From assembly GCA_029287275.1 (NCBI GenBank), contig JARFRL010000178.1, forward strand, positions 1 to 48,697: DNA of 48,697 nucleotides, given 5' to 3'. Below the pieces are notes generated by a model, which saw nothing but the letters and a program-made list of their open reading frames with translations, was not told the origin of the DNA and made no database searches. Positions 5,013 through 35,517 of the stretch are shown here, piece by piece. The first letter of the stretch is position 1. Every line of letters begins with the position of its first letter. The translations under genes were made by a program, and so were the position numbers. This stretch comes from Pontiella desulfatans. GTDB lineage: Bacteria > Verrucomicrobiota > Kiritimatiellia > Kiritimatiellales > Pontiellaceae.

Positions 5013-6364
<1,352 letters not shown>

Positions 6365-6372
<8 letters not shown>

Positions 6373-8453: not shown

Positions 8454-9419
8454 CTATCGGTCGTACTTGTACAGATGGCAATCGTAGCAGTCGGTCAGGA
8501 CTCCATGGAAGTTGTCGTCGGGCCAATACGGTTCGTGAATCCCGAGCACATCGTTTCCGCCTTCATGGCAAACCACGCAGCCTTCCCCTTCCGAGGCGGA
8601 GGTATGGCAGGAAACACAATGGGTCGGCGTTGTTTTCGAGCCGGGCGAGCTCCACCTTCCCCTGTGCGATCGCGGCCTGGCTTGCGAGTGGCACGACACG
8701 CAGGAGTCCTCTTCGTGGCAGACCACGCAACCCTCGCGGTCCCACGCGGCCATCACGCCGTGCGTTTTCAAGCGCCACAGATTGTTGTGATTCCGAGGCT
8801 GCATGACGCTGTGGCACTCCTTGCAGGAATCTTCCGAATGGCAGACGTTGCACGAGGCGTCGTCTTGCATGCCGAACATGCCGTGGCGCTGTTGCCATAA
8901 CTGGTCGTGGTCGGGCGGCCGCTGATGGCGATCCATATCAACGTGGCACTCGAGACAGTCTCGCCCTGAAGCATGCGCTTCCTCGCGGATTTCAAGAACA
9001 TCCGAACGCCGCGGCGCCGGAACCGAAACCAGCCCCTCGGCCATCAACGCGCCATGGCAATCCTGACATTTTCCCGCCAGCGCCGCGGTATGGACGAACA
9101 CGCTTCTTGTCGGCGCGTTGGTCGCGCTCTTCCAGTCCTTGAGCTCCGGAAGCTGTTTTTCCTGGTGGCAGTAGCCGCAGGTTTCCTGACTGATTTCTTC
9201 CGCCTCCGGCTCGTCGTGACAATCGACGCAGGTTTCATGCGAAAGCGCTTTGAAAGACGGTTCGCCCGGCTCGCCATGACATTCGTCGCACGCCATTTCG
9301 TTTTCCGTCACGTGGAGATGATGACTAAACTTAAGCGCGTATTTTTCCTCGTCGCAGCCTGAAAGAAACAACAGGGCGGCGCTCGCGGCCAGAATCGTGA
9401 TGATGGGTTTGATGTTCAC
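8454..9419 (-). CDS. Dodecaheme c-type cytochrome lipoprotein (ExtA-like component of a porin-cytochrome conduit)
   Basis: GTG start overlapping the porin stop; lipobox LSG-C. Twelve CxxCH motifs: CDECH, CVDCH, CGYCH, CQDCH, CLECH, CNVCH, CKECH, CVVCH, CVSCH, CVSCH, CVVCH, CYDCH. Repeated H-x3-W-x3/4-HG...CxxCH-x4-CxxCH units. The ExtA-like assignment is from recalled architecture, not a search. Confidence 0.9.
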   Translation of the reverse strand: MNIKPIITILAASAALLFLSGCDEEKYALKFSHHLHVTENEMACDECHGEPGEPSFKALSHETCVDCHDEPEAEEISQETCGYCHQEKQLPELKDWKSATNAPTRSVFVHTAALAGKCQDCHGALMAEGLVSVPAPRRSDVLEIREEAHASGRDCLECHVDMDRHQRPPDHDQLWQQRHGMFGMQDDASCNVCHSEDSCKECHSVMQPRNHNNLWRLKTHGVMAAWDREGCVVCHEEDSCVSCHSQARPRSHRGRWSSPGSKTTPTHCVSCHTSASEGEGCVVCHEGGNDVLGIHEPYWPDDNFHGVLTDCYDCHLYKYDR

Positions 9420-10789
9420 AGCCTTACCTCGAATGACGCGCGAACCCGATAGCCGAGATCTTCCTCGTCGCTATCGTCTTCGAGCTCGCCGGAAACGCGC
9501 AGCGCCGTATGTTTTGAGATATTCCATTTGCCGCGCAAAAAATAGGTGAACGCGAACGGAGAACGCTCGACGCGGGTGCCATCCAGATCAACCGTGACGT
9601 CCTCGGCGATCACCGAAAAATCCGAGAACTGGAAATAGGTGTAATCCACGTAGGCGGCGCCGGCCGAAACCTCCCAGAGCCGACCCTGCTTGTAGCGGAT
9701 GTCGCCGCTCACGCCCATGAAGCGGTCGCTTTCCTCGACGTCCCAGTATTCGAGCGCGATCGTGGCGTTGAGCGATTTGTAGGGTTCGAAAATGAAGCTC
9801 ATGTCGTAGCGTTCGTAGCCGCGGTTGGTCGCGTTGGACTCGTCGGGATAGCGCCAATAGGCGCCCGGAGAAAGGTACAGCCAGTCGAGCAGCTGACTGG
9901 TAAATCGGCCGTAGGCGGTGGTGTAGGGTTCCTGATCGCCCAGCGTTTGAACGAGCGGTGAATAGACTCGGGTGCTGGCGTCGTACTCGCCCCAGCGACG
10001 GGCGCCCAACACCGCGTCGAAAACCCGTTCGGAGAGCGACATGTAGTACAGGTCGCCGCCGCCCATGCGCACGTCGTCGTTCATGACCGAGAGGTAGGCG
10101 CGGGCGCGCACGGTCTCCGCCACTTGTTGCCGGACATCGAAGAAGAAGTGGTCGTCCGACTCACCCACGCTGTCGTCATAATACCGCGCGTAGGTTACAC
10201 GAGAGCGGTTGCCGTTCCACGGCTTTCCCACCAGCGACGCGCCGCCGAACAGATCGCCGACAATGGAGGAATAATAGCTCACCGGCTGGCCCGCGAAGAC
10301 GCGGCCGCCGAGTTGCTGGTTTTCAAACAGCATCGCCTGCAAACCATCCATCTGAATGTAGTCGGCGATGTCCACGTATTGCCGACCGGCCCGCAGGAGC
10401 GCCTTTTTCTTTTGATCATGCAGATCGACATAAAACTGAAGCAGTCGATTCCCGCCGTAGCGATCGGTGTCCTCCAAACTAATGAAGGGATCGTCGGCGT
10501 AGGACTCCCCCGCGCCGTCCAAATCGGAATGAAGCCGTCCGGAGGTGTGGAAATCCACGTGCTTGTCGGCCAGATTTCGTCCGCTCAGGATCCAATAGCC
10601 GTAGACGTCGTGATCGGAGTACGGTCCCTGCCCCCGGAAATCGTAGGTACCGCGCAGGCTCCCCGAATAGTCGGCGGTCGAGGCTTTCTTCACCGGCGCG
10701 TCCTCTTCGGCGCGCGCCGGCGCGAAAACAAAAATGAGCCCCGCGGCGATCAGCGTTCCGCGCAGGCTCGTTTGAATGGTTCGCGTCAT
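9416..10789 (-). CDS. Outer-membrane beta-barrel protein (porin of a porin-cytochrome complex)
   Basis: Signal peptide ending ARA. Tyr/Gly/Asp-rich sequence with alternating amphipathic strands and a C-terminal strand YRVRASFEVRL. Sits between two multiheme cytochrome genes. Confidence 0.8.
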   Translation of the reverse strand: MTRTIQTSLRGTLIAAGLIFVFAPARAEEDAPVKKASTADYSGSLRGTYDFRGQGPYSDHDVYGYWILSGRNLADKHVDFHTSGRLHSDLDGAGESYADDPFISLEDTDRYGGNRLLQFYVDLHDQKKKALLRAGRQYVDIADYIQMDGLQAMLFENQQLGGRVFAGQPVSYYSSIVGDLFGGASLVGKPWNGNRSRVTYARYYDDSVGESDDHFFFDVRQQVAETVRARAYLSVMNDDVRMGGGDLYYMSLSERVFDAVLGARRWGEYDASTRVYSPLVQTLGDQEPYTTAYGRFTSQLLDWLYLSPGAYWRYPDESNATNRGYERYDMSFIFEPYKSLNATIALEYWDVEESDRFMGVSGDIRYKQGRLWEVSAGAAYVDYTYFQFSDFSVIAEDVTVDLDGTRVERSPFAFTYFLRGKWNISKHTALRVSGELEDDSDEEDLGYRVRASFEVRL

Positions 10790-10805
10790 CTCGAAGTTCC
10801 AAAGA

Positions 10806-10832
10806 CCGGAACCGGTCAACGACCGGCTCCGG
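10806..10832 (-). terminator. Intergenic stem-loop between the 9-heme cytochrome and the porin (partial terminator or stabiliser)
   Basis: Minus strand CCGGAGCCGGTC-GTT-GACCGGTTCCGG forms a 12-bp stem with one G-U pair, followed by only TCTTT. Confidence 0.5.
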
Positions 10833-10840
10833 GGATTCGA

Positions 10841-13075
10841 TTAGTCTTCGATCGCGCGGTAGAACCGGTTCGTGGTACCGCGCATGGAATCCAGTTCATA
10901 GATCCAATCGCCGGTGCTCTCATGAGCCTCGCCAATGTTGGTCCACGAGCCATCGGTCAGATCGGAGGCCATCTGAATGTTGACGGTGGTTCCGGTTCCC
11001 TTCGGCATATATCCGATTTCCGCCGCGGGCAGCATGATCAGATCGCTGTTTGGCACGCTGGTGATCTCGAGCGGATCGCTGTTGCCCTGCAGTTCGACCA
11101 AGTCAGAGAAGGTGTCTCCATCCGAGTCGGCCTGCTTGGGATGGGTTCCCAGCTTCATCTCGGCCAAGTTGTTGAGCCCGTCCTCATCCCAGTCGTCCGT
11201 GCCGGACTGGCTCGTGATGTCGCCGAAGTTCTCGATTTCCCACGAGTCCACCAGACCGTCGCGGTCGACGTCGATGCCGCCGGTGAGATCGTCGATGGAG
11301 GCGCGGAGGATGGCCGCCGCGTATTTCGGGTTGTGCACCCCGTGGCTGCCGTCTTCCTCGATAAACAGGTAGTTGTACGCGCCCCGCTTCAATTCAAGGG
11401 TATTGAACTGGGAAGACATGGCATACAAATCGACCTCGGGTGATCCATAAGGCGGCAACAGCATGCCCAACTCATACATCAGATGGCCGATTTCGGTCTG
11501 CACGCCCTCGATCAAGCCATCGCGGTTGTAGTCTTCCCCGCCGAAGTCGAAGTCTTCGATCTCGCCGTGGCAGCTCGAGCAGGCCTCTGTCAGATGGATG
11601 ACCGCGTTCGTACCGTCATCGTAGGACAACGTGAAGGAGTGGCCGCCAACCTTGTTTTTGGCGTAATCCGGCAGTCCGGAAGGCGTTTCCTGCATATGGC
11701 ACTCCACACAGGAGTTCTCAACAACGGTCATATGCGTGGAGGAAGGCATTTCCTGGCCATACTCAATGGCGTTCGCCCCAGCCAGCAAATCACCCTGCGG
11801 ACCATGGTGCGGGCCAAAATACTTGCTGGCATTCCCGTATACATAGCTTTCACCGTCGCGGCGCGCCTTATGACAGGACATGCAGACCAGGCCGGCACCG
11901 CCGTCCGTGACCACATCACCGTTGCCCAACTCAACACTCTCGATGGCGCGTGTTTGATGAACGCCGTTGCCCGGACCATGCGGATCGTGGCAGGCCGCGC
12001 AAGTGATGCCTTCCTTGAAGTCGGCCCGCACCGCGACGAACTCGCCGTCCTCGTTCATGCCGGGATCGTTTTCGTCGATGAATCCCGCGGTGGTGTGACA
12101 GGCGGCGCAGGAACCCGAGCGATCCACTTCCGTGCGACCATGCAACGAGGTGCCCCATTCGAAATTTTTCACGTGGTGCGCGACCGCGTCGTGGCACTGG
12201 CCGCAATTGCCCGCGCTCACGCTGATGGAGATCTTGGAGGGATCACCACCCGTGCGCATGTGTTCCTGCGCGGGGCCATGGCAGTTTTCGCACTGCACGT
12301 TGGATTTATTCTGTAGCTCGACCGGCATATCGTCCCAGTTGTTGGTGGCCAACGGCGGGAAGGTCCAACCGAGTTCGGTGGCAATATCGTCGAACCCGTC
12401 ATTAACCGCGCCGGGCGTCGTGTCGTAACCGACCGAGTGGCACTTGATGCAAAAAGAGCGGAAATGGCCTGTCGGATCGTTGATGCTATCCTTCAGCGCC
12501 GCGGAATGGTGCGTCATGTTGAAGTCGTCCTGCTTGCTGGCATGACATAGCGAACAGGCGGAATTCTGACCGATGAAGACCGAACCGACCACTTCGAGCG
12601 TGGCGTCAAGCGTTCCGTTGGTGGTCACGGCTTGCGCTGAAATATAATACGTTCCTTTTACATCGGGAACAATCACGGCGCGATCAATCACGTCGAAAGC
12701 AACCCGATCCACGGAGTCGTAGGTCGGCATGCTCGAGGGCAATGGACTGTTCGTGATGGTCGCGGTGGAGTTTAAGATGGGCTCATCATCCAAATCCAGC
12801 ACTTGATCCAAGTTCCAGACGGCCTGCGTCACGACCGTGCCGGCTTTAACCATCAGCTCGAGATAGACCGGCTGGCCGAGTCCCACGACCGGAGCTCCTC
12901 CGGACGTTTGCGTGGCGCCATCCAGACCATAATCCAGAATTTCCTGCGGCGTGAGCGGCCGAGAGTTGATTTTGACATCCTGCGCCCGAACCTCGGTCGC
13001 GTGTAAGCCAAGGAGGATGGTCGCCGCCATCATGATTCCCCAAGCCCCGAATTTGCTTTTGCTTCGCTTCTTCAT
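10841..13075 (-). CDS. Secreted nonaheme c-type cytochrome with N-terminal PKD/Ig-like region, Ca-binding DxDxDG repeats and a C-terminal 'RFYR' domain
   Basis: Sec signal ending VRA. Nine CxxCH motifs: CSLCH, CIKCH, CENCH, CGQCH, CAACH, CAACH, CMSCH, CVECH, CSSCH. Motifs HHGPQGD, GGHSF and EDGSHGVHNPKYA (resembling the tail of c552/OmcB-type proteins). Repeats DVDRDGLVD, DWDEDGLNN, DSDGDTFSD. Ends TNRFYRAIED. Confidence 0.9.
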   Translation of the reverse strand: MKKRSKSKFGAWGIMMAATILLGLHATEVRAQDVKINSRPLTPQEILDYGLDGATQTSGGAPVVGLGQPVYLELMVKAGTVVTQAVWNLDQVLDLDDEPILNSTATITNSPLPSSMPTYDSVDRVAFDVIDRAVIVPDVKGTYYISAQAVTTNGTLDATLEVVGSVFIGQNSACSLCHASKQDDFNMTHHSAALKDSINDPTGHFRSFCIKCHSVGYDTTPGAVNDGFDDIATELGWTFPPLATNNWDDMPVELQNKSNVQCENCHGPAQEHMRTGGDPSKISISVSAGNCGQCHDAVAHHVKNFEWGTSLHGRTEVDRSGSCAACHTTAGFIDENDPGMNEDGEFVAVRADFKEGITCAACHDPHGPGNGVHQTRAIESVELGNGDVVTDGGAGLVCMSCHKARRDGESYVYGNASKYFGPHHGPQGDLLAGANAIEYGQEMPSSTHMTVVENSCVECHMQETPSGLPDYAKNKVGGHSFTLSYDDGTNAVIHLTEACSSCHGEIEDFDFGGEDYNRDGLIEGVQTEIGHLMYELGMLLPPYGSPEVDLYAMSSQFNTLELKRGAYNYLFIEEDGSHGVHNPKYAAAILRASIDDLTGGIDVDRDGLVDSWEIENFGDITSQSGTDDWDEDGLNNLAEMKLGTHPKQADSDGDTFSDLVELQGNSDPLEITSVPNSDLIMLPAAEIGYMPKGTGTTVNIQMASDLTDGSWTNIGEAHESTGDWIYELDSMRGTTNRFYRAIED

Positions 13076-13141
13076 TTTGACCTCCGTGGCTGACTTTCAG
13101 CCGATCATTAACAACCTACCCTGTCCCTCTTTTTTCCAAAA

Positions 13142-14236
13142 TCAGCTGGCGACCGCGATCGCGGCCTTCGCGCGCGTCTTGTTTCCCGCCGCCCGCCGGC
13201 GCCGGAACTGTTCGAGCAGATTCTCGATTTCCCGCGTGATGATCGCCTCGCAGCGTTCCAAATCGTTTTCCCAGCGGCCCAACGTCTGGTTCACGGACGA
13301 TTCGAGCGCGTCGATATCGCGCAGATGCACGCCCTCGATCAGGCCAACCTCCGGATCCACGTCGCGGGGAACCGCGATGTCAATAATAACCAAAGGCTGG
13401 TCCGGCCGGGCTCGCATGACCGCCTCGACCGCTTCGCGCTGGATCACCGTCTGGGAACTTCCGGTGGAACTGATGACCACGTCGGCGTCGGCCATGGCGG
13501 CGAACATTTCGGAGAACGGCACCGCGGAACCCTTGAACTCGGTGGCGAGCGACTCCGCGCGCTCGAGCGAACGATTGGCCACCACCACGTCGCACTCCCC
13601 CTTTTTCCGAAGGTGGAGCAAACAGCAGGCCGCCATTTCGCCGGCCCCGATCATGAGGACCGAATGTTTCTTCAGTCCGCCGGAACCAAGCGCTTCTTTG
13701 GCGAGCGCGACGGCCTCGCCGCCAACGGAGCGCGCGCCGCGGCCGATTGAGGTTTTTGCGCGAACGGCTTTCGCGGTCCGCAACGCGGTCTGGAAGACAC
13801 TGTTCAGTACTTTCCCAACCAGCTTCGCTTCGCGGGCCGCCTCGTAGGCGTCCTTCACCTGACCGGTGATTTGGGTTTCGCCCAACACCATGGAATCCAG
13901 GCTGCTGGCGACTTTAAAAAGGTGTTTCAGGGCGTCGAGCCCGCAATGGCGGTAGACGTGCGAGGACAGGCTCGGCATTTCGCGGACGAGGCATCCGAAA
14001 ATCGCCTCCAGGTCCGGGTTCCCGCCTTTGGCGACCACGCCGTAGATCTCCACGCGATTGCAGGTCCACAGCACGACCACCTCGGAAAGCCCGGCTTTGA
14101 GTTTGAGAAGGCGGCTTACTTCGATCCGATCCGGATGGGCGATCGCCATGCGTTCTCGAACATGCACCGGAGCCGTGCGGTAGTTGACTCCCGCAACAAA
14201 GAAACCGCTATCCAAGGCATGTTTCGAAGTATTCAT
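13142..14236 (-). CDS. hemA: Glutamyl-tRNA reductase
   Basis: GVNYRTAP, catalytic TCNRVE, SLDSMVLGETQITGQVK, GAGEM and DIAVPRD. At 364 aa the dimerisation domain is short. Confidence 0.93.
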   Translation of the reverse strand: MNTSKHALDSGFFVAGVNYRTAPVHVRERMAIAHPDRIEVSRLLKLKAGLSEVVVLWTCNRVEIYGVVAKGGNPDLEAIFGCLVREMPSLSSHVYRHCGLDALKHLFKVASSLDSMVLGETQITGQVKDAYEAAREAKLVGKVLNSVFQTALRTAKAVRAKTSIGRGARSVGGEAVALAKEALGSGGLKKHSVLMIGAGEMAACCLLHLRKKGECDVVVANRSLERAESLATEFKGSAVPFSEMFAAMADADVVISSTGSSQTVIQREAVEAVMRARPDQPLVIIDIAVPRDVDPEVGLIEGVHLRDIDALESSVNQTLGRWENDLERCEAIITREIENLLEQFRRRRAAGNKTRAKAAIAVAS

Positions 14237-14251
14237 CGTATTATAACCGGA

Positions 14252-14824
14252 TCATTCGGCAGGTCGCTCGTGTTTGATCTTTTCGTAGGCCTGCGCGACG
14301 TCAAATCCTGTTTTCGTTCCGTCCGGCAAGGTGTAGCGGTTCGGATCCCAAGTTGGGCCGGAGTCGTTGTGGCAGAGCACGCAGCTCTTTTCCTTGGCGG
14401 GATAGATCATGCCGCCGGCGATGGACAACTCGCGGCTTTCCATGGTGGATTTCTTTTTGTAGTCGGCTCCGGGGCCATGGCAGGACTCGCAGGACACGCC
14501 GTCTTCAACCGCGACCGCTTCGCTCTGGAGCGTTTCCGTGAAGAAATAGGCGGTGGAGTGGCATTTCAGGCATTGGCCGCTCGTCCGCGGATCGTCGATA
14601 CCCAGCTTCGCGCCGACGGCTTTGGCTTCTTCGCCCGCCAGTATTTCGTAGGCCTTGGCGTGATTCTTTGACATCCAAACGCCATATTGATCGCCCTTGT
14701 CGGCCTTCTTGTGGCACATCGCGCACCTCTTGGTGCCGATCAGTTTGGCGGGATCGCCCGATTGACTCCATCCGGAGGCGATGAACGCGAAGGTTAGCGA
14801 AATACTCAGCATTAATGTCTTCAT
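14252..14824 (-). CDS. Periplasmic tetraheme cytochrome c (cytochrome c554 family)
   Basis: Signal peptide MKTLML...SGWS. Four CxxCH motifs (CAMCH, CLKCH, CESCH, CVLCH). W-x3-HAKA and GVSCESCHGPG c554-type signature. GAGGT upstream of ATG 14824. Confidence 0.88.
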   Translation of the reverse strand: MKTLMLSISLTFAFIASGWSQSGDPAKLIGTKRCAMCHKKADKGDQYGVWMSKNHAKAYEILAGEEAKAVGAKLGIDDPRTSGQCLKCHSTAYFFTETLQSEAVAVEDGVSCESCHGPGADYKKKSTMESRELSIAGGMIYPAKEKSCVLCHNDSGPTWDPNRYTLPDGTKTGFDVAQAYEKIKHERPAE

Positions 14825-14918
14825 ATCTAATTTCCACCTCGTTAACCCATCCAGCCGAACCAAACCTACCTGATTGCGATGGTCACATTTAAATCATCAC
14901 ATCGACCCTGTTGCCAGA

Positions 14919-14942
14919 ATAAAAGACCCAGACCTCTAATTT
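14919..14942. promoter_or_regulatory. Candidate Rrf2 operator, copy 1
   Basis: ATAAAAGAC-N6-CTCTAATTT upstream of the c554-type gene. Resembles the copies at 15600 and 15640. Confidence 0.3.
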
Positions 14943-15093
14943 GTATTTAGTCTATTTAACCTAGGAGTAGAACAAAAGATGAGGAGGAGGCAAGGCGTGA
15001 ATCAATAAATGCATATAGTTGTTCTTTAGTACTATATGGAATATTCGCCCATTTCAGGGCGACGAAAAGCGGCCGGATTCACACTCCGGGCGC

Positions 15094-15531
15094 TTAGCCG
15101 TTAGAATGAAGCGCGGCCGGATGGTTTTTTTGAGTTTCAAGCACGTCCGAAAGCTTGACGCGCTCCAGCTCCCGCTTGATCTGTTCACGGTTTTTTATCC
15201 AGAATTTGTGCGCGGGGCATTCGTACTCGTTGCCACAGGAGTCCAAACCAAACAAACAATTACCCAGAAACGCGTCGCCTTCCAGCGCGACGCTGATATC
15301 CAGCAGGCTGATCAACTTCGCGGGGCGAGCCAGCCAAACGCCCCCTCCCGCGCCGCGTTTGGATTCGATAATCCCCGTGTTATTAAGCTTTTTGACAATT
15401 TTCGCCAAATAGGGCCGGGGAACGCCGGAACACTCCGCCAAGTCCTTGACGCTCACCGGCGGGCTCGCGTGACCGGCCAGACACGTCAAGGCCCGAACCG
15501 CGTGGCCGGTGGTCTGGGATAGTGACATCAT
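15094..15531 (-). CDS. Rrf2 family transcriptional regulator with candidate Fe-S ligands
   Basis: wHTH YLAKIVKKL...IIESKRGAGGGVWLAR and C-terminal CLFGLDSCGNEYECPAH (3 Cys + His). Confidence 0.92.
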   Translation of the reverse strand: MMSLSQTTGHAVRALTCLAGHASPPVSVKDLAECSGVPRPYLAKIVKKLNNTGIIESKRGAGGGVWLARPAKLISLLDISVALEGDAFLGNCLFGLDSCGNEYECPAHKFWIKNREQIKRELERVKLSDVLETQKNHPAALHSNG

Positions 15532-15599
15532 ATCGTAGCTCCTTCTTCAAGTCTCGCTAAGCGCAAGGTATCATGCCTGGCCGGGCGCGCCAAGATTTA

Positions 15600-15663
15600 A
15601 TAGAAGACATTAATATCTACAATCTATTCGGACATGGTTTAAACAAACCCCGCGGTCTCTATT
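15600..15663. promoter_or_regulatory. Candidate Rrf2 operators, copies 2 and 3, in the divergent rrf2/imcH-like promoter region
   Basis: ATAGAAGAC-ATTAAT-ATCTACAAT (15600-15623) and TAAACAAAC-CCCGCG-GTCTCTATT (15640-15663), both imperfect 9-6-9 inverted repeats. A TTGACT -35-like hexamer follows at 15668. Confidence 0.35.
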
Positions 15664-15768
15664 CTCCTTGACTATAGCTATCTCCCTACTCATCTTTCAT
15701 GAGAACCATCCACGAAACAGTCTTAACGTGAACGAGATATCCACACTAGGCCAAATGCTGGAGAGCAC

Positions 15769-17253
15769 ATGACCCAACCCTTGGAGAGGCGGAACTTGAC
15801 GCACAACCTCATCAGCCTGCTTGGCATGGTGATGGCCGCGTTCGGATTCATCGTTGGCGCCACGCTGATTTATGTCGATATGCAACACCACTTCGACAAT
15901 CCCTACACCGGCCTGTTCACCTACCTGGTCGTACCCGCCATCCTCGCGGGCGGACTGCTGCTCATTCTGATTGGCGCCATCGTGGAAAAAAAACGGCGCG
16001 CGCGCCAAGGAACCGAGACCTCGCGCCTCCCGGTCATCAACCTCAACGAGACGCGGCAATTCAGGGTCTTTCTGGCCGTCGTCGTCACGACCTTGCTGTT
16101 CATCGCGATCAGCGTGGTCGGCGGATACCGCGCCTACCACTTCACCGAGTCGGTCGAATTCTGCGGAAAAACCTGCCATAGCGTCATGAAGCCGGAATAC
16201 ACGGCCTATCAGAATTCCCCGCACGCCAACGCGGGCTGCACCAAATGCCATATCGGTCCGGGCGCGGACTTTTTCGTGAAGGCCAAAATCAACGGCCTTT
16301 ACCAAGTCTATTCCACGATGTTCAACAAATACAACCGGCCCATCCCCGCGCCGGTGCACAACCTGCGGCCCGCCAAGGAAACCTGCTACACCTGCCACTG
16401 GCCCGAAAAGTTTTTCGGCGCGACCGAGCTCAAACGCACCTACTTCCGCGCCGACGAAGAGAACAGCCCTTGGACCATTCAGATGCTCATGAACGTGGGC
16501 GGAGGAAACGCGTCCAAAAACGGCGCCAAAGGCATTCACTGGCACATGGCGTCCGACGTGAAAATCGAATACATCGCGGCCGACGAGAAACGGCTGGAGA
16601 TCCCCTGGGTGCGCTTGACCGGCGCGGACGGCGTTCCGACCGTCTTCCAAACCGCCGGCGAAGAACTCACGGACGAACAGGTCGCGGCCGCGGAAATCCG
16701 GACCATGGACTGCATCGACTGCCACAACCGGCCCACCCACCAATTCCACTCGCCGGAACGCGCGCTGAACGACGCGCTCACCAGCGGAGAGCTCGATTCC
16801 GCGCTGCCGGAAATCAAGCTCAACGGCATCGACGTGCTGACGGGTGAATACGAAACCGAAGGCGAAGCCCTTAGGGCGATCGACGCCAAGCTGACCGCCG
16901 CCTATCCCGACGCGGGCGAGGCGCTGGAAAAGGCCATCTCCGCCATCCAAACCATCTACGCGCGGAATATTTTCCCCGAAATGAAAGTCAGCTGGGAGGG
17001 CTACCCCGACCACATCGGCCACATGATCACGCCGGGTTGCTTCCGCTGTCACAACGGGGATCATGAAAACGAGCAAGGCCGCGTCATTACCCGCGATTGC
17101 GCCTCGTGCCACAGCATCATCGCCCAAGGACCGGGCGTGGACGTCACGAGCGTCAACACGGGAGGGCTGGAATTTAAACACCCTGAGGACATCGATGAAG
17201 AATGGAAAGAAACCCGCTGCGATGACTGCCACACCGGTGTCCCCGTCATGTAA
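15769..17253 (+). CDS. imcH: ImcH-like inner-membrane NapC/NirT-family heptaheme cytochrome c (quinol dehydrogenase)
   Basis: Three N-terminal TM helices (NPYTGLFTYL...), then TESVEFCGKTCH (CX3CH) and six CxxCH motifs (CTKCH, CYTCH, CIDCH, CFRCH, CASCH, CDDCH). Also GIHWH and NIFPEMKVSW..YPDHIGH. Size and 3TM/7-heme layout match Geobacter ImcH as I recall it. Confidence 0.82.
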   Translation: MTQPLERRNLTHNLISLLGMVMAAFGFIVGATLIYVDMQHHFDNPYTGLFTYLVVPAILAGGLLLILIGAIVEKKRRARQGTETSRLPVINLNETRQFRVFLAVVVTTLLFIAISVVGGYRAYHFTESVEFCGKTCHSVMKPEYTAYQNSPHANAGCTKCHIGPGADFFVKAKINGLYQVYSTMFNKYNRPIPAPVHNLRPAKETCYTCHWPEKFFGATELKRTYFRADEENSPWTIQMLMNVGGGNASKNGAKGIHWHMASDVKIEYIAADEKRLEIPWVRLTGADGVPTVFQTAGEELTDEQVAAAEIRTMDCIDCHNRPTHQFHSPERALNDALTSGELDSALPEIKLNGIDVLTGEYETEGEALRAIDAKLTAAYPDAGEALEKAISAIQTIYARNIFPEMKVSWEGYPDHIGHMITPGCFRCHNGDHENEQGRVITRDCASCHSIIAQGPGVDVTSVNTGGLEFKHPEDIDEEWKETRCDDCHTGVPVM

Positions 17254-19848: not shown

Positions 19849-19871
19849 GGAAACCACCCCCGCGCCCTAAC

Positions 19872-22763: not shown

Positions 22764-24521
22764 CTAGCGGCCGCTTCTCCAAACCTTGACGGGAATCAGG
22801 CCGGCGAAAATCACCACGAGCTGCGAGGCCACGAACACCAGCAACCAGAAGGTGGCGGACGAGGTGAAGCCGTAGGAGTGCAGGCCGACGCTCAGCTGAT
22901 TGACGCCGAACCACGACCACGCCGTGACGATGTTGCCGGTGACGGCCATGACCGCGAAGCCGCGGCTTCCGACCATCTTGCCGTACTTGGCGTGCAGCAT
23001 GATCGCGTTCCAGATCACGATCAAAAGCGCGCCGTTTTCCTTCGGATCCCACCCCCAGAAGCGGCCCCAGGAGTCGTCGGCCCAAAGACCGCCGAGAACG
23101 GTGCCGACGAAGCTGAGCAACAGCGCGAAGCAGGCGGTGCCGTACATCATGCGAAACATGTTGTCGCGGGTCGCCTCGTCCACCCGACGGGTCAACAGCC
23201 CCGCGAGAATGTAAAAGACGCCGATCGTGCCGGCCACGAAGGTGGCCATGTAGCCGAGCGTCACGGTGATCACGTGGGTCGCCAGCCAGAAACGGGTGTC
23301 GAGCACGGCGCGCATCTGCTCCATCGTGTCGCCGTCACCCGCGAGGAAATGGGCGACCAGCAGCGTGGTGAAGCCCGCGATGCCGCCGACGAGATTGCCC
23401 ATGCCTTCGGCCTTGCGGTAGACCAGCTCCAGAACAATGCCGGCGAGCACGGCCGCCCAGCCGATGAAGATGGCGGAGGAATACAGATTGGTGACGGGCG
23501 GATAGCCGGATAGAAACACGCGGGCGATGATCGCGAAGGTGTGCGGAATGAACGCGCAGATCATCAGCGCGAGGCCCGCGCTGATCGGGCCGCGTTTACG
23601 CGCCAACCAGCCGAAGCAGCTGAGCACGAACACGAGCAGGTAAAGCTGGGCCGATTTCATGAACGCGCCGAGGCGGTTGTAGAAGGTTTCAAACGGCATT
23701 TTTTCAAGCACCGCGGGGTTTTCGCGTTGGAGCGACGCGTTGTATTCGTTGAGCGTGTCGTTGAACCGCGCGACGTCCCCGTCGCGATAGGCGCTCAACA
23801 TGACGCCGAACTTCACGGCCATCGCGTCGGGCGGGCCAACGTTGCCCATGCTTTTCATGGCCGGGTGGTTGGCCAGCAACGCGCTCATCAGCGGTCGCCA
23901 TTTGGAATTCCCCGCGTTGGGGGGAACCGCCAGCGGGATGGAATATTTCCCTAGGCTCATGTAGCGCTGGGCGGTGGACATCAACTGCTCCGACGGGATC
24001 GCGGTCGGATCCTCGAAGGACGACATGACGTTCTGGTAGAGATAGAACTTGTTGGCCACTTTGATGACCTGCTTGTCGTACAGATCGCGCTGTTTTTCAT
24101 TCTTGGCGTAAGCGGAGCGCGACGCGGCGTCGAGGTTTCCAATGCGCGGCAGAATCTCGCGGAAGGAATAGCGGAAGCGCTTGCGCTCCTCGAGGCCGAG
24201 GCTGGAGAGCACGTCCATGTTCTCGACGCGGAAGACCTGGTAGTCCAACGCCTCGGGCCGTCCGGAAATGTTGTCGAGGAACCACTGGGTCGCGGAAACC
24301 CGCTCGCCTTCGTGATAGACCGACTGCTTGTCCGATAGAATCGTGAGGAAGTTGCGCGCCAGCGTGTCGATCGGCTTTTCGCGTCCTTCGTATTTAACCG
24401 GCAGCTGCCCGAAGGCGGTGACCTGGAAATCGGTTTCGCTTTCCTTCGGCGGCCGAACGCCGCTCTGGAAAAACCAGACCGCGAACAACACGACCACCCC
24501 GTTGATGATGATTTTTTTCAT
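22764..24521 (-). CDS. ccsA: Cytochrome c biogenesis System II protein CcsA/ResC with a large N-terminal periplasmic domain
   Basis: WWD motif WADDSWGRFWGWDPKE, WLATHV, PPVTNLYSS, GLHSYG. Start overlaps the resB stop codon. Confidence 0.93.
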   Translation of the reverse strand: MKKIIINGVVVLFAVWFFQSGVRPPKESETDFQVTAFGQLPVKYEGREKPIDTLARNFLTILSDKQSVYHEGERVSATQWFLDNISGRPEALDYQVFRVENMDVLSSLGLEERKRFRYSFREILPRIGNLDAASRSAYAKNEKQRDLYDKQVIKVANKFYLYQNVMSSFEDPTAIPSEQLMSTAQRYMSLGKYSIPLAVPPNAGNSKWRPLMSALLANHPAMKSMGNVGPPDAMAVKFGVMLSAYRDGDVARFNDTLNEYNASLQRENPAVLEKMPFETFYNRLGAFMKSAQLYLLVFVLSCFGWLARKRGPISAGLALMICAFIPHTFAIIARVFLSGYPPVTNLYSSAIFIGWAAVLAGIVLELVYRKAEGMGNLVGGIAGFTTLLVAHFLAGDGDTMEQMRAVLDTRFWLATHVITVTLGYMATFVAGTIGVFYILAGLLTRRVDEATRDNMFRMMYGTACFALLLSFVGTVLGGLWADDSWGRFWGWDPKENGALLIVIWNAIMLHAKYGKMVGSRGFAVMAVTGNIVTAWSWFGVNQLSVGLHSYGFTSSATFWLLVFVASQLVVIFAGLIPVKVWRSGR

Positions 24522-25942
24522 CAGGCGTCGCTCCTTTGATACCGCCGAAGCGACTGAATGAACTGCGCGGCCATGCCCACGAAAACGATCATGCACGCGA
24601 GGTACGGGATCATCCAACTGTCGTTGCGAACCACCTGAAGCACCGTGCCGCTGTCATCGGGCAGATAGCCGGACTGATAGAAGGTGCGCCGCGCGTAGCG
24701 CAGTGGATTGTTCATCCAGATGCGCAGTTCGCGGTTCACGTCGTCGCCCTCGTTCACGAGCAGGATCTGGCTGGCGAAGTCCTTGGGCATCTGCGTGCCT
24801 TCGTATTTCTCATGCACGAAATCGAGCAGCTGAATCGAAAAGGGACTGCCGCTCGGCGAGGTTAGATATTCCCTGCGGAAGCGGAGATAGACCTCGTATT
24901 GTTTGCCGCCCAAATTGATCCGCGTGGGCATGTCCCACGAACGGTTCACGAAGTTGGGGTACATCCATAGGCTGAGGAGGTAACGACCGCGCGATTCACC
25001 GGTTGAACGATCAACCAGCTCGACGTCGACCGCGGGCGCGTTCATGGCGCCGGTCGCGCCACTCACTTCGGGCAGTTCGGCCATGTAGAGCCGCGCTCCG
25101 TAGCCCTCGTACGCGGGATAGCCGCGGCGGGCGCTTTCGGGCACGGAGTCCAGTGGCCGCGGCCGGTTGGAATTCACGAAATAGCGATTCACTTTCACGT
25201 CGAACGGAAGTTGGTCCGCGGAGATGACGGCGCCTTCCTTGAGGCTGCGCTGGGGCAACACCGTTACCGTGTCGCGGTCGGGATTCGAGACCTCGGTGAA
25301 CGCGATTTCCAGTTGCTGGGAGTGGTCGATGTAGTTGACCGTCTCGCCTTCCTTAATGGTCATGCGGGCCTCGACCGCGTACATGGCCGTCATGAACTCG
25401 CCCACCATCAGAAACAGAATGCCCCCGTGCAACAACACCATGCCGGCGCGTTTGCGATAGAGCAGCACGCAGGCGATGTAGAAAACGACCGCCGCGAGGG
25501 TGCCGCGCCCCAAACGGAGGAAAACCCGCCAAAACGCGTCGCTGTCCGTGGCCGCGACCGAAGCCGTTCCCCAGCCGAACATGACGCCCATGGTGACGAG
25601 CACGCCGAGCAGAAGCACCAAGATGCCGGCGATGCGCCGCGCCCCGTTGACCTGAATTTTAAAACTCGCCCAATGCACCGTGATCAGATTGACCACCAGC
25701 AGCCAGCCAATCAAAAAACCGCCCGGGAAGGGAATCCGGATGTTCGGCACGTCCCAACCGCGGGGGAAGAAAACGGGGAGATCGATCCATGCGATCAGGC
25801 AGCGGAAATATTGATCCACCACCGTCCAGATGCCTTTGTCGACCTGCGCGAGGGTGCCCGCGAAAACCAGCACCATGCTCAACGCGAGCAACGTGATCGT
25901 CAGTTTCAGCGAGAGGAAAAAATTAGTGATTTTTTTCAGCAT
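24521..25942 (-). CDS. resB: Cytochrome c biogenesis System II protein ResB/CcsB
   Basis: FLSLKLTITLL...GTLAQ, G..LLHGG, PFSIQLLDF...YEGT..PKDFAS, IWMNNPLRY...FYQSG, C-terminal TM helix. Confidence 0.88.
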   Translation of the reverse strand: MLKKITNFFLSLKLTITLLALSMVLVFAGTLAQVDKGIWTVVDQYFRCLIAWIDLPVFFPRGWDVPNIRIPFPGGFLIGWLLVVNLITVHWASFKIQVNGARRIAGILVLLLGVLVTMGVMFGWGTASVAATDSDAFWRVFLRLGRGTLAAVVFYIACVLLYRKRAGMVLLHGGILFLMVGEFMTAMYAVEARMTIKEGETVNYIDHSQQLEIAFTEVSNPDRDTVTVLPQRSLKEGAVISADQLPFDVKVNRYFVNSNRPRPLDSVPESARRGYPAYEGYGARLYMAELPEVSGATGAMNAPAVDVELVDRSTGESRGRYLLSLWMYPNFVNRSWDMPTRINLGGKQYEVYLRFRREYLTSPSGSPFSIQLLDFVHEKYEGTQMPKDFASQILLVNEGDDVNRELRIWMNNPLRYARRTFYQSGYLPDDSGTVLQVVRNDSWMIPYLACMIVFVGMAAQFIQSLRRYQRSDA

Positions 25943-26038
25943 GATTCCTTTTCCCGGGAAAGCAACTAGACCTCGTCGACGCGGCAACGTTCAATATTCA
26001 CGGCTATTTCACCGATAATCGGTCATTAGCCGGGTCGA

Positions 26039-26638: not shown

Positions 26639-26712
26639 GCCTTGAATCCTTTACGTAAGAGTTGCCCGAAAATAGAATCCGCGGGCTCGGATGTCGATTA
26701 ATATTATCATGT

Positions 26713-26757
26713 TTGACGCCTATCAACCTTGCCAAAACTCCGTTCATGACCTAAATT
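26713..26757 (+). promoter_or_regulatory. FNR/Crp-type box with an adjacent sigma70-like promoter
   Basis: TTGAC-GCCT-ATCAA (26713-26726) has 1 mismatch to TTGAT-N4-ATCAA. It is followed by TTGCCA-N17-TAAATT (26729-26757) and lies between the divergent ccs and sirC-hemA genes. Confidence 0.5.
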
Positions 26758-26833
26758 CCATCGCTTTTCAGGAAGTTGAAAATCCGATCTAGCCAAGCAA
26801 CCGCGGCTTTGGTCTACTGAATTTCAGAGCATC

Positions 26834-28330
26834 ATGACGGACAAAACACATTCCCATAATGGCATTCACATCAATCTATTCCTCGCGGGCCGCCGGTGCC
26901 TCGTCGTCGGCGGCGGCAAGGTCGCCACGCGTAAAATCAAGATGCTGGTCGAAGGCGACGCCAAGGTAACCATCGTCAGCCCCGAGGTTTGCGACGAACT
27001 CGCGGCGCTGATCGAGAACGGATCGGTCGTTCATGTTCCGCGCCGGTTCGAGCAACGGGATATCGAAGGCGCGTCGATCGTCTACGCCGCCACCAACAGC
27101 CGCGGCGTCAACCGTCAGGTGCTCGAGACCTGCCGCGCCGCGGACACGCTCTGCTGCTGCGTGGACGGAAACTGGGCCGACAGCGATTTCACCACGCCCG
27201 CCACCGCGAAACACAACAATCTCACGCTGTCCGTCTCCTCCGGCGGCAACGACTGCCGTCAGTCCAAAATGATCAAGAACAGCCTGGCGCGGCATCTGGA
27301 AATGATGGAGGCCGCGCACCTCGTCGTCGTCGGCACCGACCACAACCACCTGACCGTCGAAGAGCGCGAACCCTTTCACCTGACCGGCCCCAAGTTCGAG
27401 CGCGCCGGGTTCATGATCATGCAACTCTGGGGCATCCACGAGTTCATGATTCTAAACACCTGCAACCGCGCCGAAGTCATCGCGATCGTCTCGGAGGAAA
27501 CCTCCGAAAACGGCATCCTGCGCCACATGATGGGATTCGCCGCGCTCAAGGAAGACAAGTATTATCTGAAAACCGGCAAGAAGGCGTTCGAGCACCTATG
27601 CCTCGTCACCGCGGGCATGCTTTCGCAGACGCCCGGAGAAAACCACATCACCGCGCAAATGAAAGACGCGCTCGAGACCGCCAAGCAACGCGGCTGGGCC
27701 GGCAACATGACCCAAGCCTGGATCTCCTCCGCCCTGCAGGTCTCCAAAGCCATCAAGAACGAGGTCTCTCCGTTGCTCCGCGACTTCGAGATCGAAGACC
27801 TCGCGCTCAGCTACCTCGAAGCCCACGACAAGGATCTTTCCAAATCCACCGTCATGGTGCTCGGCGCGGGCATGGTTGGAAAATGCCTCGTCGCCGATAG
27901 CGTCGCCAAGGTCGAGAAAATCATCTGGTGCTACCACGTCAACAAACCCGAACTCGCCGCGGAATGGGGCGACAAAGTCGAGTTGCGCACCTTCAACGAG
28001 ATGAAGAACCACATCACCGACGCGGACATCATCATCAGCGCGACCGACGCGCCCGGACACGTGCTCCACATGGCGCACGCGCCGTTCTTCAACCAGGAAC
28101 GGCCCGTGATGGTCATCGACCTCGGCATGCCCCGCAACATCGACCCCGAGCTCGACGACCTCTCCACCGACGTGACCGTCGTGGACCTCGACGGATTGAA
28201 ATACTGGTACCGCCGCGAACTGACCGACATGAACGAGGTGCTCACCCGCGCCCGCGCCATCACCGCCGCCAACAAGGATCTATACGACAAGATCGCCAAA
28301 AGCCTTAAAAGCCCCGACGCCGACAGATAG
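26834..28330 (+). CDS. Fusion of precorrin-2 dehydrogenase/sirohydrochlorin ferrochelatase (SirC/CysG N-terminal/Met8-like) and a glutamyl-tRNA reductase (HemA)-like domain
   Basis: Residues about 1-155: CLVVGGGKVATRKI, ATN...VN, CCVD...DFTTPA, SVSSGG. Residues about 160-498: VGTDH, LNTCNRAE, GENHITAQMK, GAGMVG, IDLGMPRNID. Confidence 0.85.
   Translation: MTDKTHSHNGIHINLFLAGRRCLVVGGGKVATRKIKMLVEGDAKVTIVSPEVCDELAALIENGSVVHVPRRFEQRDIEGASIVYAATNSRGVNRQVLETCRAADTLCCCVDGNWADSDFTTPATAKHNNLTLSVSSGGNDCRQSKMIKNSLARHLEMMEAAHLVVVGTDHNHLTVEEREPFHLTGPKFERAGFMIMQLWGIHEFMILNTCNRAEVIAIVSEETSENGILRHMMGFAALKEDKYYLKTGKKAFEHLCLVTAGMLSQTPGENHITAQMKDALETAKQRGWAGNMTQAWISSALQVSKAIKNEVSPLLRDFEIEDLALSYLEAHDKDLSKSTVMVLGAGMVGKCLVADSVAKVEKIIWCYHVNKPELAAEWGDKVELRTFNEMKNHITDADIIISATDAPGHVLHMAHAPFFNQERPVMVIDLGMPRNIDPELDDLSTDVTVVDLDGLKYWYRRELTDMNEVLTRARAITAANKDLYDKIAKSLKSPDADR

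Positions 28331-33918: not shown

Positions 33919-35513
<1,595 letters not shown>

Positions 35514-35517
<4 letters not shown>

What the first reader, a model, noticed from the sequence alone, without database searches (positions are those of the whole stretch)
8454..28330. Self-contained, Geobacter-like extracellular electron transfer island in a probable PVC (Kiritimatiellota-like) genome
Seen: about 20 kb encodes six multiheme cytochromes (12, 9, 4, 7, 11 and 4 heme sites; 45 CxxCH plus 2 atypical), a beta-barrel, ResB/CcsA, two HemA proteins, a SirC-like domain, an Rrf2 regulator and an FNR-like box. Known: Geobacter uses ImcH and CbcL for quinol oxidation, small periplasmic cytochromes as shuttles, and porin-cytochrome conduits (ExtABCD, OmaB/OmbB/OmcB) to cross the outer membrane, and these genes are scattered around its chromosome. 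Inference: this locus packages a whole chain (inner membrane, periplasm, outer membrane, surface) together with its own heme supply, maturation and redox regulation. The lineage suggested by neighbouring genes (Tat Gfo/Idh/MocA + HEAT pair, long-form CcsA/ResB, DxDxDG-rich secreted proteins) is regarded mainly as polysaccharide fermenters, and I know of no described EET pathway in it.
Basis: partly seen in the sequence, partly recalled or inferred. Interest (0 to 1): 0.93.

Follow-up and report, generated by a model that had tools for sequence, protein, structure and literature searches.

The report
Electron-export wire in Kiritimatiellia fermenters
A sugar-fermenting type of sediment bacterium (order Kiritimatiellales) carries a conserved block of haem-protein genes that likely forms a wire from its inner membrane, through a predicted outer-membrane pore, to a likely secreted nine-haem protein resembling the surface iron reductase of Gram-positive thermophiles, which would let it dump electrons onto minerals or humic matter outside the cell.

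Summary
Observation confirmed: six multihaem cytochromes (45 CxxCH plus 2 atypical). The host is Kiritimatiellales, probably Pontiellaceae, and the contig is not chimeric. The 494-aa protein meets the ImcH definition, with five Geobacter quinol-site residues at identical positions. A CbcL-like protein follows it. The unannotated 467-aa ORF models as a plugless 22-strand outer-membrane barrel. The nine-haem protein is OcwA/OmhA-like and ends in a tail shared with this genome's secreted hydrolases; four of six distant homologues carry a type-IX-like tail instead. The barrel occurs in 12 of 52 same-genus genomes and 26 of 401 class genomes (8 families), flanked by the same two cytochromes wherever the contig reaches. 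'Self-contained' is overstated: CcsA is a genus core gene (48 of 52), most haem synthesis lies elsewhere, and the FNR box is not conserved; an Rrf2-linked palindrome is. Best reading (about 0.68): an accessory outward electron-transfer chain in a fermenter. Porin-cytochrome operons in Kiritimatiellaeota genomes and Fe(III)/AQDS reduction by Pontiella are already in print, so this is a new variant of a known kind. No function was tested.

The parts
8454..9419 (-). 12-haem c-type cytochrome, predicted lipoprotein (Cys22); c7/ActA-like N-terminus plus repeated dihaem units; likely the barrel's partner
   Evidence: directly downstream of the barrel in 12 of 12 same-genus and 12 of 12 other-family stretches, there with 12-26 haems where complete
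9416..10819 (-). Predicted plugless outer-membrane beta-barrel, 22 long strands, no library family (likely start at 10789)
   Evidence: model pLDDT 85.6; best folds are outer-membrane barrels, MtrB Z 15.9 among near-ties; no Pfam/NCBIfam hit
10841..13075 (-). OcwA/OmhA-like nine-haem cytochrome with signal peptide, N-terminal beta domain, DxDxDG (TSP3-type) repeats and a C-terminal tail shared with secreted hydrolases; likely the surface terminal reductase
   Evidence: OcwA, OmhA; His pairs 300/301 and 423/424; tail; type-IX-like tails in distant homologues
13142..14236 (-). Second glutamyl-tRNA reductase (HemA), specific to the block
   Evidence: TIGR01035 over cut-off; close orthologues (67-77%) in 14 of 52 genomes, all ImcH-positive
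14252..14863 (-). Tetrahaem c554-like cytochrome with signal peptide (likely start 14824); likely periplasmic shuttle
   Evidence: PF13435 over cut-off; conserved next to imcH
14923..14938 (.). Degenerate copy (2 mismatches) of the TRGAY-N6-RTCYA palindrome upstream of the leftward operon
   Evidence: read against the motif; at most 1 mismatch in 8 of 11 rrf2-bearing loci, the window not among them
15094..15531 (-). Rrf2-family regulator with C92, C99, C105, H108 (IscR-like Fe-S ligand spacing, recalled)
   Evidence: PF02082 and TIGR00738 over cut-off; IscR and NsrR models under cut-off
15604..15619 (.). TRGAY-N6-RTCYA palindrome (1 mismatch) between rrf2 and imcH; likely Rrf2 operator
   Evidence: at most 1 mismatch in 10 of 10 rrf2-bearing loci (8 perfect), 1 of 5 loci where no rrf2 was seen
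15769..17253 (+). ImcH-family quinol oxidase: 3 transmembrane helices, Cx3CH plus 6 CxxCH
   Evidence: E127, H137, K173, Q179, Y188 at the G. sulfurreducens positions
17063..19162 (+). CbcL-like protein: 11 c-haems fused to a cytochrome b membrane domain (true start probably downstream of 17063)
   Evidence: PF01292 over cut-off; 14 of 52 same-genus genomes, one partial
19159..19848 (+). Exported protein of unknown function, weak OB-fold hint in homologues; travels with the block
   Evidence: no family over cut-off; OB hints under cut-off; present in many relatives' stretches
19872..20675 (-). Four-site cytochrome (3 CxxCH plus Cx4CH) with DxDxD repeat and RFYR ending; optional member, possibly secreted
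   Evidence: in 4 relatives; tail profile score only 3.4 bits
21130..22518 (+). Acyl-CoA dehydrogenase; unrelated insertion
   Evidence: not in any relative's stretch
22764..24617 (-). CcsA, system II haem lyase; genus core gene, single copy here (likely start 24521)
   Evidence: PF01578; 48 of 52 same-genus genomes
24521..25987 (-). ResB/CcsB, system II maturation
   Evidence: PF05140
26039..26638 (-). Predicted lipoprotein of unknown function, first gene before resB-ccsA
   Evidence: no family; adjacent to resB in relatives
26713..26726 (.). FNR-like box (1 mismatch); not supported as a conserved site
26834..28330 (+). SirC-like domain fused to a divergent HemA; probably housekeeping
   Evidence: similar-length weak HemA matches also in genomes without the block
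7709..8437 (+).
   Evidence: beside the 12-haem gene in 11 of 12 same-genus stretches, found in 7 of 12 other-family stretches; no family

Best explanation
The block at 8454-20675 encodes an ImcH-family and a CbcL-like membrane cytochrome, a tetrahaem, a 12-haem lipoprotein, a predicted outer-membrane barrel and an OcwA-like nine-haem protein, which together likely carry electrons from menaquinol to acceptors outside the cell. Steps. (1) Inferred from genome content: NADH from sugar fermentation reduces menaquinone through Na+-NQR; NqrBCD and futalosine-pathway genes are present, NuoH was not found. (2) Inferred from family membership: ImcH, and CbcL where present, oxidise menaquinol and pass electrons to the periplasm; in Geobacter they serve high- and low-potential acceptors. 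(3) Inferred: the c554-like tetrahaem shuttles electrons to the 12-haem lipoprotein, which threads or docks on the plugless barrel. (4) Inferred: the nine-haem protein is exported by the route used for the cell's hydrolases, sits on the surface and reduces Fe(III)/Mn(IV) oxides, humic quinones or electrodes at its two open haem sites. (5) Inferred: the extra HemA raises haem supply; the genus's core ResB/CcsA attaches the haems; the Fe-S-type Rrf2 controls both divergent operons through TRGAY-N6-RTCYA. The gain would be electron disposal with ion pumping at Nqr in place of H2 evolution, that is acceptor-assisted fermentation rather than Geobacter-style full respiration.
For: ImcH features and five residues at the Geobacter positions; PMC6295460 reports ImcH only from Fe(III) reducers among EET-capable bacteria. 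Barrel model and fold matches. Nine-haem protein matches only OcwA and OmhA by fold at E<0.001, with both His pairs kept. Tail profile built from 12 non-block proteins scores 10 bits or more in 47 of 120 homologues, always at the C-terminus, and in 0 of 120 reversed controls; 4 of 6 distant homologues end in FlgD_ig instead, 2 with Por_Secre_tail over cut-off. All 12 barrel-positive, 10 nine-haem-positive, 14 CbcL-positive and 14 second-HemA-positive same-genus genomes are among the 18 ImcH-positive ones. Two ImcH-positive genomes lacking this barrel have a different predicted barrel plus multihaem genes beside imcH. Nqr, Mqn, Rnf and hydrogenases present.
Against: No functional test exists. 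OcwA similarity is remote (19% identity, TM 0.48 by target, rmsd 10.8), and OcwA itself also reduces nitrite and hydroxylamine in vitro. The window's own tail scores only 14.5 bits (E 0.039 among 23,469 ORFs), and the profile's seeds were picked by their end motif. No export machine was identified (PorV not found, 7 secretins of unassigned role). K. glycovorans reduces AQDS and metals without quinones or c-type cytochromes (PMC7356697), so the lineage's known phenotype does not need this block. In a lake study, bins with such operons were scarce at Mn-cycling depths. imcH lay within the fetched stretch in only 3 of 12 other-family loci. CbcL homologues also serve Fe(II) oxidisers.
Confidence: 0.68

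Rival explanations
1. The nine-haem protein is a catalytic reductase for a soluble substrate (nitrite, hydroxylamine, NO, or a sulfur oxyanion or polysulfide), fed by ImcH and the c554-like tetrahaem in the manner of a reversed HAO-c554-cM552 module (recalled); Rrf2 senses NO.
For: Weak profile matches to MccA and NrfA; open-site His pairs conserved; OcwA reduces nitrite and hydroxylamine in vitro; the tetrahaem is c554-like; some homologues are auto-named c552 nitrite reductase.
Against: Small soluble substrates need no dedicated large barrel plus 12-26-haem partner. Secretion-type tails point outside the cell. No CxxCK site. An NrfAH-like pair lies on contig C189 (recognised by eye, not scanned). 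The NsrR model is far under cut-off.
Confidence: 0.13
2. The same outward wire serves mainly direct interspecies electron transfer to sulfate reducers or methanogens, or to conductive particles, rather than mineral or humic reduction.
For: The host looks fermentative (four [FeFe] hydrogenase matches, Rnf, NuoH not found). A close relative's contig comes from a tidal-flat metagenome.
Against: No partner data. OcwA and OmhA are described as oxide/electrode reductases. The two uses are not exclusive.
Confidence: 0.1
3. The chain runs inward, taking electrons from Fe(II), reduced humics or metal to menaquinone and on to the cbb3 oxidase or NrfA-like enzyme.
For: CbcL/MtoC homologues occur in Fe(II) oxidisers. 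A cbb3-type oxidase with a cytochrome b and 7-haem neighbour is encoded on C172.
Against: ImcH, the most constant inner-membrane member (18 of 52 against 14 for CbcL), has been implicated only in quinol oxidation.
Confidence: 0.05
4. The region is a mis-binned or recently imported piece from a known electrogen.
For: Patchy presence: 11 changes on a PcnB tree of 49 genomes, not clustered against shuffles (175 of 500 as low).
Against: GC 59.4% against 59.5% for the genome, tetranucleotide correlation 0.983. PcnB on the same contig is Kiritimatiellales. The ImcH falls in a 17-row same-genus clade with a same-class sister pair. No record among the 80 best ImcH loci is titled as Geobacter or Desulfuromonadia. 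An independent 19.8-kb contig is co-linear over 8700-20700.
Confidence: 0.02

Closest known systems
Geobacter sulfurreducens ImcH (GSU3259) and CbcL inner-membrane quinol oxidases
   Same: Architecture of both; ImcH E127, H137, K173, Q179, Y188 at the same numbers.
   Different: CbcL-like protein has 11 c-haems, not 9; genes are adjacent; Nqr rather than complex I is the likely entry; a c554-like tetrahaem stands where Geobacter uses trihaem PpcA. No direct alignment to the Geobacter sequences was run.
Porin-cytochrome conduits (Geobacter OmbB-OmaB-OmcB and ExtABCD; Shewanella MtrCAB)
   Same: Large plugless barrel encoded between two multihaem genes; MtrB is among the fold matches (Z 15.9, rmsd 6.5, 348 aligned).
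   Different: Barrel has no Pfam/NCBIfam family and is about 430 residues against 649 for MtrB; the putative outer cytochrome is not a lipoprotein but OcwA-like with a secretion-type tail.
OcwA of Thermincola potens (PDB 6I5B) and OmhA of Carboxydothermus ferrireducens (6QVM)
   Same: Nine haems, C-terminal helix bundle, both His-His motifs; the only fold matches at E<0.001.
   Different: 19% identity; here in a diderm, next to a barrel gene, with extra N-terminal beta domain, DxDxDG repeats and a C-terminal tail. PMC9250108 found OcwA/OmhA poorly represented in databases; here 1139 proteins scored E<=1e-20 to the haem region.
Putative porin-multihaem clusters of Verrucomicrobia (PMC5615132) and of Kiritimatiellaeota bins (10.1101/2020.04.01.018762)
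   Same: Same phylum or class, same logic of barrel plus periplasmic plus extracellular multihaem, also untested.
   Different: The Verrucomicrobia clusters have eight-haem partners; the passages read name no ImcH, CbcL or OcwA-like member. I could not compare sequences, so the Kiritimatiellaeota operons in that preprint's Figure S10 may be this family.
ImcH-centred multihaem clusters of Ignavibacteria, Calditrichota, KSB1, Zixibacteria and Verrucomicrobiia genomes
   Same: imcH with a CbcL-like gene within 10 kb in 39 of 80 loci; nine-haem homologues at 32-35% in several; weak barrel homologues in 8 loci.
   Different: ImcH 40-54% identical; other partners (13-, 14-, 19-haem); type-IX-like tails.

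Membership tests
ImcH | Three N-terminal transmembrane helices | tested here: met
   hydropathy segments 14-32, 54-72, 100-118; definition from PMC6295460
ImcH | CX3CH next to the membrane part plus six CX2CH, about 495-519 aa | tested here: met
   C132-H137 plus 6 CxxCH, 494 aa
ImcH | NapC/NirT-like region and residues E127, H137, K173, Q179, Y188 | tested here: met
   PF03264 over cut-off; all five at these numbers; K173 and Q179 in 80 of 80 homologues
ImcH | Groups with GSU3259 in a tree | not tested
ImcH | Oxidises menaquinol | not testable with these tools
   needs biochemistry
CbcL/MtrH/MtoC | N-terminal multihaem c domain (3-23 motifs) fused to a HydC/FdnI-like cytochrome b domain | tested here: met
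   11 CxxCH; PF01292 48 bits, cut-off 30.1
CbcL/MtrH/MtoC | Six transmembrane helices with three conserved haem-b histidines | tested here: inconclusive
   crude hydropathy found 5 C-terminal segments; candidate His present but not mapped to GSU0274
Porin-cytochrome conduit (general kind) | Large outer-membrane barrel without plug domain | tested here: met
   22 long strands from residue 50, pLDDT 85.6; barrel fold matches; a prediction, not a localisation
Porin-cytochrome conduit (general kind) | Barrel gene adjacent to multihaem genes, conserved | tested here: met
   12-haem-type neighbour in 24 of 24 relatives examined; nine-haem neighbour in 10 of 12 and 11 of 12, the misses at contig ends
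Porin-cytochrome conduit (general kind) | Physical complex that conducts electrons across the membrane | not testable with these tools
   needs co-purification and proteoliposome assay
MtrB/PioB porin family | Sequence match to the family profile | tested here: not met
   0 Pfam families at E<=0.001; alignment profile finds no porin in PDB sequences, which include MtrB, at E<=1
Geobacter OmbB/ExtB porins | Sequence homology | tested here: inconclusive
   no NCBIfam hit at E<=0.01, but coverage of these porins by the library is unknown and no direct comparison was run
OcwA/OmhA | Nine c-haems, NrfA-like C-terminal three-helix bundle, same fold | tested here: met
   9 CxxCH in 116 of 120 homologues; helices 525-598; profile E 4e-21 and fold E 2e-8 to 6I5B
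OcwA/OmhA | His-His motifs 281/282 and 380/381 above two five-coordinate haems | tested here: met
   H300/H301 and H423/H424 align to them; His in 81, 116, 117 and 92 of 117 rows; geometry not inspected
OcwA/OmhA | His/Met coordination of haem 9 | tested here: inconclusive
   M461 in 109 of 117 rows, not mapped in the model
OcwA/OmhA | Cell-surface location and oxide or electrode reduction | not testable with these tools
   indirect support only: tails
IscR / NsrR equivalogs of Rrf2 | Score over the curated cut-off | tested here: not met
   65.8 of 207.6 bits (IscR), 44.2 of 182 (NsrR); superfamily met
Recently transferred genomic island | Alien composition, tRNA or integrase at the border | tested here: not met
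   patchy presence still allows exchange or loss within the genus

The most novel reading that the evidence does not exclude
Kiritimatiellia have their own, class-wide type of electron conduit in which an OcwA-type terminal reductase, so far known from Gram-positive surfaces, is exported by an undescribed C-terminal sorting tail shared with polysaccharide hydrolases and docks on a new barrel family with a 12-26-haem wire; a quarter to a third of one sediment genus would then be polysaccharide-degrading electrogens that couple primary fermentation directly to metal oxides or partner cells, and the tail would mark an uncharacterised PVC secretion signal.
Probability: 0.35. Interest if true: 0.82.

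Novelty: new variant of a known kind. Interest (0 to 1): 0.58.

Why it matters
Primary polysaccharide fermenters are usually placed upstream of iron and manganese reducers in sediment models. A working chain here would join the two steps in one cell and would divert electrons from H2. It gives a concrete, testable gene set for a question left open in the Pontiella species description (how and why these bacteria reduce metals and AQDS, PMC7356697). It extends OcwA-type reductases to diderms and points to a possible PVC secretion tail. NCBI names a barrel (65%) and a nine-haem homologue (68%) with consecutive locus tags from 'Pontiellaceae bacterium B1224', a record without the MAG prefix and so possibly a culturable test strain (not verified).

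Tried and rejected
Complex prediction of barrel (36-467) with the 12-haem protein (22-321), without haems: no verdict, score 0.18 against a mark of 0.32, controls not folded. Sequencing-run search: no RNA holder listed; three DNA runs with small word shares, of which only X1 gave a long co-linear contig. No 16S rRNA in the assembly. FNR box: at most 1 mismatch in 1 of 8 relatives upstream of SirC-HemA and 0 of 9 upstream of the lipoprotein gene; none in the two promoter regions of the cytochrome block; the window has 24 matches at 2 mismatches against 11.9 expected, mostly inside ORFs. Pfam Binary_toxB match in the nine-haem protein is under cut-off and covers only the DxDxDG repeats; rejected as a toxin sign. 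PDB sequence searches for ImcH and CbcL found nothing. The Atlas gave only unnamed or auto-named outer-membrane clusters for the barrel and did not answer for the 229-aa protein. Tail profile was inconclusive for the four-site cytochrome and the C343 six-haem protein. The careful PcnB tree did not finish; the quick tree was used, 23 of 46 inner branches open, one duplicate G043 row dropped. Identity of block genes tracks PcnB identity only moderately (Spearman 0.29-0.62 over non-independent pairs), so vertical descent and within-genus exchange are not separated. The ImcH tree left out hits under 400 aligned residues and L001 as an apparent duplicate. The best succinate dehydrogenase/fumarate reductase-like hit is L-aspartate oxidase; the second was not identified. 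Literature searches with no paper: multiheme cytochrome + T9SS + extracellular electron transfer; Pontiellaceae + multiheme; OcwA + porin + ImcH + metagenome-assembled. One search listed nothing on a Verrucomicrobiota sorting tail (listing only). The 2026 Kiritimatiellia synteny preprint and the P. agarivorans preprint have 0 occurrences of 'cytochrome' in the main text. No source for strain B1224 in the 30 of 72 papers listed or in PMC10449756.

Full report
Observation. Family scans confirm HemA, SirC-HemA, ResB, CcsA and Rrf2. The window is contig C279 of a 2.87-Mb, 491-contig assembly rated 94.6% complete and 4.3% contaminated. Of 18 ORFs with 2 or more CxxCH in the assembly, 6 are in this block, including the three richest.

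Host. PcnB on the same contig is 82-83% identical to PcnB of two genomes titled 'Kiritimatiellales bacterium', 41% and 42% to a Verrucomicrobiia and a Lentisphaeraceae genome, and 32% to a Zixibacteria genome. Close homologues of the barrel and cytochromes carry the names Pontiella sp., Pontiellaceae and Kiritimatiellales. The block matches the genome in GC and tetranucleotides. A 19.8-kb contig from a tidal-flat metagenome is co-linear in eight pieces from 8700 to 20700, about 93% identical over the longest. Chimerism is unlikely.

Inner membrane. The 494-aa protein has three hydrophobic helices, Cx3CH and six CxxCH, the ImcH definition in PMC6295460 (passages). The five residues that 10.1101/2023.05.03.539133 places at the quinol site and haem 1 (E127, H137, K173, Q179, Y188; passages) occur at the same numbers; among 80 homologues K173 and Q179 are invariant, 127 is E or D in 79 of 79, and 188 is Y in 63. 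The next gene fuses 11 c-haems to a cytochrome b domain, the CbcL plan. The best 80 ImcH loci are two Kiritimatiellales (73-74%) and then Verrucomicrobiia, Zixibacteria, KSB1, Ignavibacteria, Calditrichota and others at 40-54%. In a FastTree of 96 rows the window sits in a 17-row same-genus clade, sister to two genomes of another family of the class.

Outer membrane. The 467-aa ORF has no Pfam or NCBIfam match. With a 92-row alignment it models at pLDDT 85.6 as 22 long strands starting near residue 50, leaving no room for a plug. Fold matches are outer-membrane barrels: TonB-dependent receptors, FimD usher and MtrB, at Z 15.9-18.9 without a clear winner. Its profile finds 602 representatives at E<=0.001. 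The downstream 12-haem protein has a nearly invariant Cys22 after a hydrophobic leader and overlaps the barrel's stop codon. Its +2 residue is Asp; which membrane holds it is open (sorting rules recalled from other phyla).

Terminal cytochrome. The nine-haem protein matches OcwA (6I5B) and OmhA (6QVM) by profile (E 4e-21, 1e-13) and by fold (the only entries at E<0.001; 19% identity, TM 0.48 and 0.33 by target). PMC6703420 (passages and section 7) and PMC9250108 (passages) define two His-His motifs over open haem sites; H300/H301 and H423/H424 align to them with one constant offset and are conserved. The protein ends in a 60-residue tail. A profile from 12 other proteins of the genome, chosen by their end motif, hits this tail weakly (14.5 bits), hits 47 of 120 homologues at 10 bits or more, always terminally, and 0 of 120 reversed controls. 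Of 10 seed proteins scanned, 5 are hydrolases (subtilase, trypsin-like, two sulfatases, GH16), 2 carry other extracellular-type domains and 3 have no family. Four of six distant homologues end instead in FlgD_ig, two of them with Por_Secre_tail over cut-off; the two Calditrichota ones have no such tail. Export to the surface is therefore likely, not shown. PorV was not found; 7 secretins were.

Distribution. Among 52 other genomes of the genus: ImcH 18, CbcL 14, second HemA 14, barrel 12, nine-haem 10, each a subset of the ImcH set. Many are fragmentary, so misses are 'not found'; but the four most contiguous assemblies (1-10 contigs) lack all of them. Gene order 12-haem, barrel, nine-haem, hemA, tetrahaem, rrf2, imcH is kept wherever contigs reach; cbcL, a 19-haem CbcL-like paralogue and the four-site cytochrome are optional. 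A 95%-complete genome has everything but CbcL. In a class sample the barrel is in 26 of 401 genomes from 8 families; of the 16 outside the family I fetched 12, and all have the 12-haem-type neighbour, 11 the nine-haem, 3 an imcH and 4 a CbcL-like gene in the stretch. In a phylum sample only one weak match lay outside the class. Presence is scattered on a PcnB tree. Two ImcH-positive genomes without this barrel carry beside imcH a tetrahaem, an NHL-repeat protein, a multihaem and an unrelated 650-aa predicted barrel; that barrel is in 3 of 52 genomes, all ImcH-positive. One inner-membrane module thus pairs with two outer modules.

What is not part of it. CcsA is in 48 of 52 genomes. SirC-HemA-like genes appear in block-negative genomes. 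HemC and ferrochelatase are on other contigs. The block proper is 8454-20675, possibly with 7709-8437, placed beside the core maturation locus in this and several relatives. The acyl-CoA dehydrogenase is a local insertion.

Regulation. The FNR-like box is not conserved. A palindrome TRGAY-N6-RTCYA lies upstream of imcH with at most 1 mismatch in 10 of 10 rrf2-bearing loci and upstream of the tetrahaem in 8 of 11, against about 9-10% in shuffles; it is absent in the three genomes whose loci lack rrf2 with sequence on both sides. The motif was read from these same sequences, so the contrast, not the count, is the test. In the window the imcH copy has 1 mismatch and the other 2.

Metabolic setting. 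Found: NqrBCD and RnfCD over cut-off, two futalosine-pathway matches, four [FeFe] hydrogenase matches, a group-3-like [NiFe] hydrogenase with HoxU/Y-like neighbours (labels partly recalled), a cbb3-type oxidase. Not found: NuoH. This suits a fermenter using an external sink.

Prior knowledge. PMC5615132 (passages) and PMC6344600 (passages) report untested porin-multihaem clusters in Verrucomicrobia. 10.1101/2020.04.01.018762 (passages) reports such operons in Kiritimatiellaeota bins and doubts that Mn reduction is their main pathway. PMC7356697 (passages) shows two Pontiella species and K. glycovorans reducing ferric citrate and sulfur, with AQDS stimulating MnO2 reduction and cutting H2 by about 75% in one strain, mechanism unknown. 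ImcH and CbcL homologues in Verrucomicrobia are listed in PMC6295460. Searches found no description of this gene set or of an OcwA-like protein beside a porin; the library omits most subscription papers. Three earlier notes of this scan describe similar clusters in other phyla; they are unchecked leads.

Verdict. It works most likely like a Geobacter-type quinol-to-surface chain, with a true ImcH, a CbcL-like protein, a barrel outside known families and an OcwA-like terminal protein. It is a new variant of a known kind.

Noticed in passing
genome G000, e.g. C48:4488-5804, C51:4567-6120, C358:4813-6408, C411:3333-7631: At least 12 proteins, many with signal-like leaders and hydrolase or Ig-like domains, share a C-terminal tail of about 60 residues ending in an aromatic-aromatic-Arg motif; no Pfam family covered it in those scanned. 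Candidate PVC secretion signal.
   Followed up: partly
L145:139-4743, L147:63-5329, L143:10902-12648: A second putative conduit beside imcH in the same genus: tetrahaem, NHL-repeat protein, 7-11-haem cytochrome and a 650-aa predicted barrel with no Pfam/NCBIfam match.
   Followed up: partly
L109:9508-12351, L105:14088-16979, L001:14054-16177: A 19-haem CbcL-like paralogue with weak cytochrome b domain sits next to cbcL in five relatives and in many FCB loci.
   Followed up: no
window 4999-7639 (-): PAS histidine kinase and sigma-54 response regulator just left of the block; a similar regulator lies near the block in 7 of 12 same-genus relatives, orthology not tested.
   Followed up: partly
window 32297-39456: A NifV-like homocitrate synthase and two NifA-like GAF sigma-54 activators, all just under their NCBIfam cut-offs; nitrogenase genes were not searched.
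   Followed up: no
G000:C172:1607-6677 (L244): Cytochrome b, a 7-haem c protein and cbb3-type CcoN/CcoO in one run of genes: a possible quinol-to-oxygen module.
   Followed up: partly
G000:C343:281-2944 (L242): A lone six-haem cytochrome with an Ig domain and an FYRIRR ending; possibly another secreted cytochrome.
   Followed up: no
window about 26770-26800, upstream of SirC-HemA: Conserved imperfect inverted repeat (CTAGCCAA ... TTGGTCTA) seen by eye upstream of SirC-HemA in most of 9 genomes; regulator unknown.
   Followed up: no
window 13142-14236 and 26834-28330: Neither HemA showed a match to the C-terminal dimerisation domain in Pfam; both keep the TCNR catalytic motif.
   Followed up: no
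L108:352-10425: One relative has two barrel copies, one with a 12-haem and one with a 20-haem partner, on either side of resB-ccsA.
   Followed up: no
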